Shown: positions 63,474 to 64,000 of the stretch, piece after piece
Numbering within the stretch: position 1 is the stretch's first letter
Layout: each line of letters starts with the position of its first letter
The notes under the pieces: generated by a model
What the model saw: the letters and a program-made list of their open reading frames with translations, nothing else
Told to the model about the DNA's origin: nothing
Database searches by the model: none
Virus record (IMG/VR): IMGVR_UViG_2778260992_000001
Length of the DNA: 64,000 nt
DNA from: a virus
Taxonomy: Duplodnaviria; Heunggongvirae; Uroviricota; Caudoviricetes
Strand: one strand, 5' to 3'
Translations under genes and position numbers: made by a program

Positions 63474-63491
63474 AAGAAAACAAGTTGTTTC
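63474..63491. promoter_or_regulatory. palindromic operator-like site, class 1, upstream of parA
   Basis: aagaaaacaagttgtttc. Confidence 0.5.
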
Positions 63492-63526
63492 AGACGATAA
63501 TTATATACGCAAAGGGAACTCTCCAA

Positions 63527-64000
63527 TGACCAAGATCTTTGTGGTTGGCGGCACAAAGGGCGGGCCTGGCAAATCCACCGTTGCCCAGCAAATTGCCGTT
63601 TGCCTGAAAGTCAAAAAGAAGAAGAAGGTTTATATCACTGATATAGATATTCAGCGCACGACAACAAGCTGGTGTGAAGACCGTCGACAGAACGAAGACC
63701 TTGAGCTGATTCCTTTTGCATACGTTCAGGATGACATCATTAAGCACCTAAAATCGCTTCAGGGTAGAGCTGAGTTTGTAGTGGTAGATGCTGGTGGCTT
63801 TGACTCCGAAATTCAGCGACAAGCGATGCTGATGGCCGACGTTATCATTATCCCGCTGCGTCCTAAGCGTCGTGATTTGAAATCTTTACGTGACATCGAT
63901 CCTATTATCGACAATGTTCGTAATGTAAACGATAAAGTGAAGGTCCGCGCGGTCATGAACCAGTGCCCGGCTTTGCCATCACAAGTGTCTCGCATTTTGG
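63527..64000 (+). CDS. parA: ParA/Soj-type partition ATPase (3' end outside window)
   Basis: deviant Walker A GGTKGGPGKST; ORF runs to window end without a stop. Confidence 0.75.

What the first reader, a model, noticed from the sequence alone, without database searches (positions are those of the whole stretch)
63474..64000. parA behind a class-1 palindrome: evidence for a plasmid lifestyle (phage-plasmid)
A deviant-Walker-A ParA begins at the end of the window, directly after the lysis and late genes, with the element-wide class-1 palindrome in its promoter region. With the iteron regions and the absence of any integrase in 64 kb, the simplest reading is an extrachromosomally maintained prophage whose partition operon is tied into the same regulon as many accessory genes.
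Basis: partly seen in the sequence, partly recalled or inferred. Interest (0 to 1): 0.6.

Follow-up and report, generated by a model that had tools for sequence, protein, structure and literature searches.

The report
Partition gene of a known phage-plasmid
The end of the window holds the start of the plasmid-partition operon of an SSU5-type phage-plasmid, a well-known family of E. coli, Salmonella and Klebsiella prophages that live as about 110-kb circular plasmids, so the reading is right but ordinary; the repeated palindrome in its promoter looks like a family-wide operator that I could not find described.

Summary
Observation confirmed. A ParA/MinD-type ATPase gene with a deviant Walker A motif (KGGPGKS) starts at 63526 and runs off the window. 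The 13-bp palindrome AAACAAGTTGTTT lies at 63478-63490, 35 nt before the ATG and after a terminator. The window holds 7 perfect-arm copies, against 0.01 expected.

Interpretation supported, but already known. The window is 96-98% identical to circular E. coli plasmids of about 110 kb and to phages PhiR41_1 and Cyrano, and 82% to Salmonella phage SSU5. Cyrano has been measured at 5.5 copies per cell, makes virions, and transcribes parA and the next gene in lysogens.

In relatives parA is 222 aa and most resembles ParF, a type Ib partition ATPase. A conserved 117-119-aa gene follows it and is the likely ParB.

RepA lies outside the window, so the window's repeats are not Rep iterons. Complete relatives do carry a tyrosine "integrase", about 11 kb beyond parA.

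The palindrome sits just downstream of the predicted transcription start, or over the -35, of about 17 promoters. It is kept at orthologous promoters in Klebsiella relatives. Nearly all the genes it fronts are silent in lysogens, so it looks like a repressor operator. What binds it is unresolved.

The parts
63526..64000 (+). 5' part (158 of 222 codons) of parA, a type Ib (ParF-like) deviant Walker A partition ATPase, cut by the window edge
63478..63490 (.). Class-1 palindrome AAACAA-G-TTGTTT (with a 5' AAGA extension from 63474). It lies 35 nt upstream of the parA ATG, at about +9 to +21 of the predicted transcript; inferred operator.
   Evidence: Invariant in 61 distinct relatives except for the central base.
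63421..63498 (+). Conserved cis block that opens the par cassette (-105 to -28 from the ATG). It holds the predicted promoter, the TAGGC direct repeats and the palindrome, and is a candidate operator/centromere region.
   Evidence: 96.6% mean identity, against 78.6% at parA third codon positions and 42% upstream of -100. Searches show at least ten unrelated upstream contexts.
63434..63462 (+). Predicted sigma-70 promoter TTTACA-17 nt-TAGGCT (inferred by eye; it fails the tool's 9-of-12 threshold)
   Evidence: Read from the sequence. The same -35/17/-10 layout recurs in divergent relatives L096, L099 and L105 (18-nt spacer in L100). One search found no canonical promoter.
63376..63395 (+). Intrinsic terminator closing the upstream cargo genes
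62195..63370 (+). Two genes of unknown function in a variable cargo slot between the lysis cassette and parA. Cyrano has a KacAT toxin-antitoxin pair in this slot.
60587..62020 (+). Lysis cassette (holin, endolysin, Rz/Rz1 spanins) at the end of the late operon
   Evidence: annotation of SSU5 and Cyrano orthologues
33907..33944 (.). Two class-1 palindromes 25 bp apart, upstream of the terminase small-subunit gene (33985)
   Evidence: conserved in Cyrano, pMT1 and pJN2-26
19325..19388 (.). Promoter flanked by two class-1 palindromes, one over the -35 (19325-19337) and one after the start site (19376-19388), 51 bp apart, around an extended -10 (TGaGATAAT)
22170..24804 (.). Cluster of class-1 palindromes at small early genes: 22170, 22654, 24307 and 24792 after an extended -10, and 23557 over a -35
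5693..6434 (.). Class-1 palindromes at 5693-5705 and 6422-6434, in front of the TciA-like gene and the next gene
10963..10975 (.). Class-1 palindrome with 1 mismatch, of the type that overlaps a -35
28693..28971 (-). 92-aa protein with an RHH-like sequence pattern; its Cyrano orthologue CYRAN_117 is strongly expressed in lysogens. Alternative candidate binder of the palindrome.
   Evidence: No Pfam hit and a low-confidence model.
30598..31964 (+). Two ParB N-terminal-domain genes upstream of the terminase genes. They are NOT the partner of this parA and are silent in lysogens.
   Evidence: CYRAN_119/120 at 5.0 and 9.5, against a background of 9.8

Best explanation
The window is about 60% of an SSU5/pSLy3-type phage-plasmid of E. 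coli. Positions 63421-64000 open its partition cassette.

The cassette begins with a conserved block of about 80 bp holding a sigma-70-like promoter (TTTACA-17-TAGGCT) and the class-1 palindrome. Then comes parA, a 222-aa type Ib, ParF-like ATPase. Just outside the window relatives carry a 117-119-aa partner gene and, in the closest relative L001, a terminator. The partner has a basic, flexible N-terminal tail and a probable ribbon-helix-helix core, which is the usual build of a type Ib ParB.

Shown: gene identity, synteny, cassette boundaries, plasmid state of relatives, and transcription of parA and its partner in a lysogen.

Inferred: ParA patterns on the nucleoid and the small partner, bound at a centromere in or near the conserved block, stimulates its ATPase, so the roughly 5 copies are distributed at division.

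The palindrome (full form about GAAAACAAnTTGTTTTC) is a DNA operator. It lies either a few bases downstream of the predicted start site or over the -35 of about 17 promoters. These front early genes, the helicase, nrdB, cobT-like and terminase genes, and parA. Whoever binds it keeps those promoters off in the plasmid state. The par promoter is the leaky member, which ties partition into the same circuit. The identity of the binder is open (see rivals).
For: Family and plasmid state; PMC9928086 (copy number 5.5, virions, ciprofloxacin induction); PMC7969092 (SSU5 supergroup).

ParA.

Partner gene: always adjacent to parA, 91-99% conserved, with invariant KSRTMS(L/I)EDE...FTRSDVIRAAI down to homologues of 48% identity. 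Sub-threshold RHH_1 hits on two family members.

Cassette boundary and purifying selection on the upstream block.

Expression in a Cyrano lysogen: parA 50 and partner 89, against a background of 9.8. Other palindrome-fronted genes read 5.7-25.

Palindrome statistics and placement. Conservation at orthologous promoters in Klebsiella pJN2-26 (11 perfect, 17 with at most 1 mismatch) and in pMT1.

DNA site rather than RNA hairpin: site variants are single-arm mismatches without compensation, and three sites lie upstream of the -10.
Against: No transcription start site data exist. The promoter is called by eye and fails the tool's consensus threshold.

No array of repeats typical of a type Ib centromere was found near parA.

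The RHH fold of the partner is not established. There is no Pfam hit on the protein itself, the AF2 model has pLDDT 62, and there is no fold or profile match.

The window itself gives no topology or copy number. The plasmid state is inferred from 96-98% identical relatives.

The par promoter carries a perfect operator yet is expressed while the others are silent, which needs a further explanation.
Confidence: 0.8

Rival explanations
1. The small ParB-like partner itself binds the class-1 palindrome. It would autoregulate the par promoter, and the roughly 17 dispersed copies would serve as dispersed centromere sites and/or silenced promoters. One protein would then couple partition with shut-off of lytic and accessory genes, as omega does on pSM19035, KorB on RK2 and SopB on N15.
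For: Type Ib ParAs lack a DNA-binding domain, so in known systems the small ParB is the autorepressor (established knowledge of ParG, omega and pB171 ParB).

The palindrome is the only dyad in the invariant par promoter.

The partner's putative DNA-reading strand (SRTMS) is invariant across the supergroup, as is the palindrome.

The other RHH-like candidate varies at the predicted DNA-facing positions.

The partner is expressed in lysogens at the level of the CI-like HTH protein (89 against 96).

The HTH protein has a different palindrome, GGTAAG-N2-CTTACC, in its own intergenic region.

The two 6-bp arms are centred 7 bp apart, like two omega heptads in inverted orientation (my knowledge).
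Against: pMT1 has lost this parA and partner (no tblastn hit) yet keeps 6 palindromes at orthologous promoters, although they could be relics.

A distant relative (L105) has no canonical palindrome after its par start site, only a variant (AAATATCTTATTT) over the -35.

With an identical operator the par promoter is on while the others are off.

No route from SOS induction to relief of ParB repression is apparent.
Confidence: 0.35
2. A separate element-encoded repressor binds the palindrome, and the par operon is simply one member of its regulon. Candidates are the lysogen-expressed 92-aa RHH-like protein at 28693-28971 or another uncharacterised protein. The ParB-like partner would bind different sites in the conserved -105 to -50 block, for example the TAGGC repeats.
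For: Almost all palindrome-fronted genes are silent in lysogens, as expected of a lysogeny repressor's targets.

The palindromes persist in pMT1 without the par genes, while the 92-aa gene is retained there.

The 92-aa protein is expressed 12-fold above background in lysogens.

Dispersed operators of a master repressor are known from P1 C1 (my knowledge).

The conserved par block extends about 50 bp beyond the palindrome, which leaves room for a separate ParB site.
Against: The 92-aa protein has no family or fold assignment. It is only 51-62% conserved, with changes in the putative DNA-reading strand, while the palindrome is invariant.

No palindrome lies near its own promoter.

No other lysogen-expressed DNA-binding protein was identified.
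Confidence: 0.45
3. The motif acts in RNA. It would be a 5'-UTR element recognised by a post-transcriptional regulator such as the FljA-like protein encoded at 27673-28275 (-).
For: Most copies lie in the predicted 5' UTR, 8-65 nt (mostly 8-35 nt) before the start codon, with a strand-specific AAGA extension.

The element encodes a full-length homologue of FljA (PF03614, E 2e-84). In Salmonella FljA binds the fliC mRNA leader (my knowledge).
Against: Three copies lie upstream of the -10 and would not be transcribed.

Variants break the would-be stem without compensation.

The hairpin would have 5 mostly A-U pairs and a 3-nt loop, so it would be marginally stable (inference).

The FljA-like gene is only about 2-fold above background in lysogens.
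Confidence: 0.07
4. The ATPase is not a partition protein, or the element is integrated and the gene is a relic.
For: The ParA/MinD superfamily includes non-partition ATPases. The NCBIfam ParA_partition score is below its cut-off (115.7 against 180 bits). The window alone shows no topology.
Against: Hundreds of near-identical circular plasmid records exist.

The gene has a conserved partner, a conserved cis block and is expressed in lysogens.

ParF is the best structural relative.
Confidence: 0.03

Closest known systems
SSU5-supergroup phage-plasmids (Salmonella phage SSU5, pHCM2 of S. Typhi, E. coli Cyrano/pLF82, PhiR41_1, Klebsiella pJN2-26)
   Same: The window is collinear with Cyrano and with plasmid NZ_CP062814.1 at 96-98% identity. 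It has the same order: late operon, lysis cassette, cargo slot, parA, small partner, helicase/primase. The parA promoter block and palindrome are identical.
   Different: Only cargo differs. Here two unknown genes sit before parA, where Cyrano has KacAT, and some accessory blocks differ (window 11-13 kb, 19.7-20.7 kb, 27.4-28.7 kb).
TP228 ParF-ParG-parH (type Ib partition)
   Same: A small deviant Walker A ATPase without an N-terminal DNA-binding domain; ParF is the best solved match (E 1e-10). It is followed by a small protein with a flexible basic tail and a probable RHH.
   Different: It carries about 35 extra C-terminal helical residues. No array of tetramer boxes lies upstream.
pSM19035 delta-omega (the RHH protein omega is both ParB and global regulator)
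   Same: If the partner binds the palindrome, the logic is the same: a small RHH ParB whose short repeats lie in several promoters, so partition and transcription share one protein. The 7-bp register of the two arms resembles two inverted heptads (my knowledge).
   Different: Omega sites are arrays of 7-10 heptads at three promoters. Here there are single or double 13-17-bp dyads at about 17 promoters. Binding is untested.
N15 SopAB with dispersed palindromic centromeres; RK2 IncC-KorB with 12 OB palindromes
   Same: A phage-plasmid (N15) or plasmid (RK2) whose partition protein recognises a palindrome scattered around the genome and thereby also affects gene expression. For N15 see Ravin et al. 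2008, cited in PMC11652158. The RK2 case is from my knowledge.
   Different: Those use large HTH ParBs (type Ia). Here the ATPase is type Ib and the partner is small. Whether the partner binds the palindrome is unknown.
P1 C1 repressor and its dispersed operators
   Same: A phage-plasmid with one operator sequence at many promoters that are kept off in the plasmid state (my knowledge).
   Different: P1 operators are asymmetric 17-mers, and the P1 par operon is autoregulated by ParA/ParB, not by C1.

Membership tests
ParA/MinD partition ATPase, type Ib (ParF-like) | Deviant Walker A motif with signature lysine (xKGGxxGK[ST]) | tested here: met
   GGTKGGPGKST at residues 8-18, read from 63547-63579. 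Pfam CbiA, AAA_31, MipZ and ParA all score above their cut-offs on the full-length orthologue.
ParA/MinD partition ATPase, type Ib (ParF-like) | About 200-230 aa, with no N-terminal HTH domain | tested here: met
   The Walker A starts at residue 8 in the window. Orthologues are 221-229 aa.
ParA/MinD partition ATPase, type Ib (ParF-like) | Sequence membership in a curated ParA partition family | tested here: inconclusive
   NCBIfam ParA_partition gives E 2e-33 but 115.7 bits against a cut-off of 180. PHROG 164 'ParA-like partition protein' gives E 4e-51. ParF 4dzz gives E 1e-10.
ParA/MinD partition ATPase, type Ib (ParF-like) | Operon with a small centromere-binding protein gene immediately downstream | tested here: met
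   This lies outside the window. A 117-129-aa ORF abuts or overlaps the parA stop in every relative examined and is co-expressed in a lysogen.
ParA/MinD partition ATPase, type Ib (ParF-like) | Cis-acting centromere of repeated ParB sites next to the operon | tested here: inconclusive
   The upstream block is strongly conserved, but it holds no repeat array: only one palindrome and two TAGGC repeats.
ParA/MinD partition ATPase, type Ib (ParF-like) | Stabilises a plasmid; the ATPase is stimulated by the partner | not testable with these tools
   Needs plasmid-loss and ATPase assays.
SSU5-supergroup phage-plasmid | Shared persistent gene set and synteny with SSU5/pHCM2-type elements | tested here: met
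   Megablast collinearity over nearly the whole window with Cyrano and NZ_CP062814.1. SSU5 matches at 82%.
SSU5-supergroup phage-plasmid | Maintained as a circular extrachromosomal replicon | tested here: inconclusive
   Not determinable for this window. Met for relatives: the match list is dominated by plasmids of about 110 kb, those inspected being circular, and Cyrano is at 5.5 copies per cell (PMC9928086).
SSU5-supergroup phage-plasmid | Plasmid replication initiator (IncFIB-type RepA/RepB) | tested here: not met
   There is no RepA homologue in the window. In relatives it lies about 13 kb before the window-equivalent start. This is a limit of the window, not evidence against membership.
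Ribbon-helix-helix ParB (ParG/omega type), for the partner gene | Beta-alpha-alpha RHH DNA-binding core | tested here: inconclusive
   A motif is visible by eye (SRTMSLEDEYFELL...FTRSDVIRAAI). There are sub-threshold RHH_1 hits on homologues P0027 (E 0.005) and P0035 (E 0.11) and an aCcr1 RHH hit at E 2e-4, below cut-off. The protein itself has no Pfam hit. The AF2 monomer has pLDDT 62, and there are no PDB, Foldseek or hhalign matches.
Dispersed-operator or dispersed-centromere systems (omega, KorB, N15 SopB) | The partition protein binds the dispersed palindrome | not testable with these tools
   Only indirect arguments are available.

The most novel reading that the evidence does not exclude
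The small ParB-like partner of this type Ib ParA is the protein that recognises GAAAACAAnTTGTTTTC. The SSU5 supergroup includes pHCM2 of S. Typhi, pWPMR2-like elements of S. sonnei and the ancestors of Y. pestis pMT1. In these phage-plasmids one tiny partition protein would then autoregulate par, use about 17 dispersed dyads as centromere-like sites, and hold early, replication and packaging promoters off in the plasmid state. This would be a KorB/omega-like global circuit inside a tailed phage.
Probability: 0.3. Interest if true: 0.6.

Novelty: already known. Interest (0 to 1): 0.22.

Why it matters
As stated, the finding only re-identifies a member of a well-catalogued phage-plasmid family, whose ParA is already annotated in SSU5, Cyrano and hundreds of plasmid records.

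The conserved operator network is worth a note. The same dyad sits at about 17 promoters, par included, and persists across E. coli, Salmonella and Klebsiella relatives. Three full-text searches found no description of it. The lysogeny and plasmid-maintenance circuitry of this clinically common family is essentially unstudied, and this gives a simple, testable handle on it.

Tried and rejected
(1) Fold of the partner protein. The AF2 monomer was low-confidence (pLDDT 62). Foldseek against the PDB found nothing. PDB sequence and profile searches found nothing.

(2) Reaching distant partner homologues. The family is tiny: 25 clusters and 18 representatives among 1.84 billion proteins. All members examined lie in the same lysis-parA synteny, so there was no independent plasmid context to separate ParB from the palindrome.

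(3) An IncF plasmid hit (NZ_CP075717.1) proved to be a recombinant fragment holding only the partner gene.

(4) pMT1 as a natural 'no ParB' test. The palindromes persist, but pMT1 is a decayed derivative, so this is not decisive.

(5) Rfam on the whole window gave no hit. Tandem-repeat and repeat scans found no iteron array near parA or anywhere next to a rep gene.

(6) The two ParB_N-domain genes near the terminase genes were considered as the partner and rejected. They are silent in lysogens and belong to a different operon.

(7) The HTH 'repressor' CYRAN_45 was considered as the palindrome binder and down-weighted. Its own intergenic region carries a different dyad and no class-1 copy.

(8) The 92-aa RHH-like protein gave a low-confidence model (pLDDT 58) and no family hit.

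(9) PADLOC and Pfam gave nothing for the two cargo genes before parA.

(10) Three literature searches found no description of the palindrome.

Full report
**What is at the coordinates**

An ORF opens with ATG at 63526 and runs off the window at 64000, giving 158 codons. Its product starts MTKIFVVGGTKGGPGKST, which is a deviant Walker A box with the signature lysine. It is 99.4% identical to ParA of Escherichia phage Cyrano.

The full-length orthologue in relatives is 222 aa. It scores above the Pfam cut-offs for MipZ, AAA_31, CbiA and ParA and matches PHROG 164 'ParA-like partition protein'. It also matches NCBIfam ParA_partition, though below that family's cut-off. Its closest solved structure is ParF of TP228, the type Ib paradigm (E 1e-10).

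The palindrome AAACAA-G-TTGTTT lies at 63478-63490. An intrinsic terminator at 63376-63395 ends the upstream gene, so parA must have its own promoter in the 130 bp between.

'Directly after the lysis genes' is slightly loose. Two genes of unknown function (62195-63370) sit between the holin/endolysin/spanin cassette and parA. In relatives this is a variable cargo slot; Cyrano carries a KacAT toxin-antitoxin pair there.

**Is the palindrome more than chance?**

Yes. The window has 7 copies with perfect arms and 14 with at most one mismatch. Two hundred dinucleotide-preserving shuffles gave means of 0.01 and 0.49, with a maximum of 4.

**What the element is**

The last 4 kb match 669 plasmid records in PLSDB, and the par cassette alone matches 774. 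Of those 774, 740 are non-mobilizable and nearly all are 100-125 kb, from Escherichia, Klebsiella, Enterobacter, Salmonella and Citrobacter. pHCM2 of S. Typhi is among them.

The phage collection returns PhiR41_1 (96%), Cyrano (95%) and Salmonella phage SSU5 (82%). The whole window is collinear at 96-98% with circular plasmid NZ_CP062814.1 and with Cyrano. It runs through Cyrano's arbitrary record ends, as expected for a circular or permuted genome.

This is the SSU5 supergroup of phage-plasmids (PMC7969092). Cyrano (pLF82) was measured at 5.5 copies per cell, yields siphovirus particles and is induced by ciprofloxacin (PMC9928086).

First, the window has no RepA (tblastn). In Cyrano the initiator (CYRAN_63) lies about 13 kb before the window-equivalent start. 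The repeats I could find in the window are degenerate 29-31-nt repeats in a CA-rich non-coding stretch at about 20.7-21.5 kb, and again at 24.68 kb. They are not next to any rep gene.

Second, complete relatives do encode a tyrosine recombinase annotated as integrase, about 11 kb beyond parA, paired with a small HTH gene. This is seen in Cyrano (PF00589) and in NZ_CP062814.1, pMT1 and pJN2-26. Absence from this 64 kb is an accident of the window. The gene is transcribed in the Cyrano lysogen. Its role, whether dimer resolution or occasional integration, is unknown.

**The rest of the par locus, from relatives**

In every relative parA is followed at once by a 117-129-aa ORF. It is 91-99% identical from E. 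coli to Klebsiella. Even homologues of 48% identity keep MGDLAK...RPQGRPTRGK..IKSRTMS(L/I)EDE(Y/F)...FTRSDVIRAAI.

That reads as a flexible basic tail followed by a beta strand and two helices, i.e. a ribbon-helix-helix. The support is weak, however:
- There are sub-threshold RHH_1 hits on two homologues and a sub-threshold hit to the RHH protein family aCcr1.
- The protein itself has no Pfam hit.
- The AF2 monomer is low-confidence.
- There are no PDB, Foldseek or hhalign matches.

The family is tiny, with 18 representatives among 1.84 billion proteins. It was found only in this lysis-parA synteny.

In the Cyrano lysogen, parA and this gene are transcribed at 50 and 89 units against a background of 9.8. 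The two ParB_N-domain genes near the terminase genes (window 30598-31964) are silent at 5.0 and 9.5. The small gene, not the ParB_N pair, is therefore the likely ParB.

**The cassette boundary and promoter**

I aligned 61 distinct versions of the region from 91 loci, set in at least ten unrelated upstream contexts.
- Positions -95 to -28 relative to the ATG (the core of the -105 to -28 block) are 96.6% conserved.
- parA third codon positions are 78.6% conserved.
- Sequence upstream of -100 is 42% conserved.

The block holds TTTACA (63434-63439), a 17-nt spacer and TAGGCT (63457-63462). This layout recurs in relatives whose ParB is only 35-64% identical. It fails the tool's consensus threshold, so the promoter is an inference. 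With it, the palindrome falls at about +9 to +21.

No array of short repeats typical of a type Ib centromere is present. The candidates are the palindrome and two TAGGC repeats 9 bp apart.

**The palindrome network**

Genome-wide, Cyrano has 18 copies with at most one mismatch, against 0.7 expected. Klebsiella pJN2-26, whose parA DNA is only 79% identical, has 17 (11 perfect) at orthologous promoters. These promoters front nrdB, TciA-like and small early genes, the terminase small subunit (two copies in the E. coli relatives and pMT1, one in pJN2-26), parA, the DnaB-like helicase and the cobT-like gene.

The layout takes one of two forms.
- In most sites the order is extended -10 (TGnGATAAT), then about 9 nt (CACCAnC), then AAGA, then the palindrome, then 8-35 nt to the ATG.
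- In three sites (10963, 19325, 23557) the palindrome overlaps the -35 of a promoter with an extended -10. One promoter (19325/19376) has both forms, 51 bp apart.

Divergent relatives show the full dyad GAAAACAAnTTGTTTTC.

Site variants are single-arm mismatches without compensation, and some copies would not be transcribed. A DNA operator for a dimeric protein therefore fits better than an RNA hairpin.

In the Cyrano lysogen the first genes behind these sites read 5.7-25 units, i.e. at or near background. The par operon is the exception. A repressor operator is the most economical reading.

**Who binds the palindrome is not settled**

For the ParB-like partner:
- Type Ib ParBs are the autorepressors of their operons.
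- The palindrome is the only dyad in the invariant par promoter.
- The partner's putative DNA-reading strand is as invariant as the palindrome.
- It is expressed in lysogens at the level of the CI-like HTH protein.
- Precedents exist: omega, KorB, and N15 SopB (the last cited in PMC11652158).

Against the partner:
- pMT1 has lost parA and the partner yet keeps six palindromes.
- One distant relative has only a variant dyad over the -35 of its par promoter.
- The same operator gives an active par promoter but silent neighbours.

Alternatives:
- A lysogen-expressed 92-aa protein with an RHH-like pattern (28693-28971). It has no family or fold assignment and varies at the predicted DNA-facing residues.
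- The HTH repressor. Its own intergenic region carries a different dyad, GGTAAG-N2-CTTACC.
- The FljA-like protein (PF03614) acting on RNA.

I put about 0.35 on the partner, 0.45 on another element-encoded repressor and under 0.1 on an RNA mechanism.

**Verdict**

The one feature I could not find described is the conserved operator network that includes the par promoter. It is a clean target for EMSA or ChIP and plasmid-stability experiments.

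Noticed in passing
window 20650-22150: About 1.5 kb with no CDS annotated in the RefSeq relative. On the + strand, 20700-21500 is strongly C>G (GC skew to -0.57) and A>T (AT skew to +0.65). It is packed with degenerate 29-31-nt direct repeats and is followed by a G-rich stretch with long-range complementarity to it. No Rfam hit.
   Followed up: partly
window 15485-15506 and 15522-15911: A near-perfect LexA box (ATACTGTATGCATATACAGTAT) lies 16 nt upstream of a 129-aa S24-peptidase-only (UmuD-like) gene. The Cyrano orthologue is expressed 15-fold above background in lysogens.
   Followed up: partly
window 27673-28275 (-): A full-length homologue of FljA, the repressor of phase-1 flagellin (PF03614, E 2e-84), with a weak Hfq-like C-terminal signal. 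A phage-plasmid gene that might interfere with host flagellin expression.
   Followed up: no
window 28693-28971 (-): A 92-aa protein downstream of the UvsW-like helicase with an RHH-like sequence pattern. It is conserved in Klebsiella relatives and pMT1 (51-62% identity) and highly expressed in the Cyrano lysogen. No family hit; the AF2 model is low-confidence.
   Followed up: partly
window 62195-63370: Two co-oriented genes (132 and 258 aa) with no Pfam or PADLOC hit occupy the variable slot before parA. Relatives carry a KacAT toxin-antitoxin pair or other cargo there, so this may be an uncharacterised accessory or defence pair.
   Followed up: partly
window 30598-33513: Operon of two ParB N-terminal-domain proteins and, by the annotation of relatives, two ABC-type ATPase-like proteins just upstream of the terminase genes. 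All are silent in lysogens and are probably lytic-cycle or DNA-packaging functions rather than partition.
   Followed up: partly
L009 (Cyrano) 41040-41075 and 42600-42830: A LexA-box-like sequence (TACTGTTTACTTATACAGT) lies just upstream of the tyrosine 'integrase'. A distinct GGTAAG-N2-CTTACC dyad with related half-sites lies between the HTH repressor gene and its divergent neighbour, and is probably that repressor's operator.
   Followed up: no
L001 11492-11544 (relative, about 2 kb beyond the window end): An inverted repeat with 26-nt arms (88% complementary, 1-nt spacer) lies upstream of the 246-aa gene, helicase and primase block. Candidate origin or operator.
   Followed up: no
window 15949-19240: Host-like genes carried by the element: an ApbC/Mrp-type P-loop ATPase on the - strand (expressed in lysogens; annotated 'MinD' in Cyrano) and a full methionyl-tRNA synthetase.
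   Followed up: no
L105 (distant relative) 8638-9330: In a distant relative the slot before parA holds an S24 peptidase gene with a perfect LexA box and an ApeA-like HEPN gene. Its par promoter carries a variant dyad (AAATATCTTATTT) over the -35 instead of the class-1 palindrome after the start site.
   Followed up: partly
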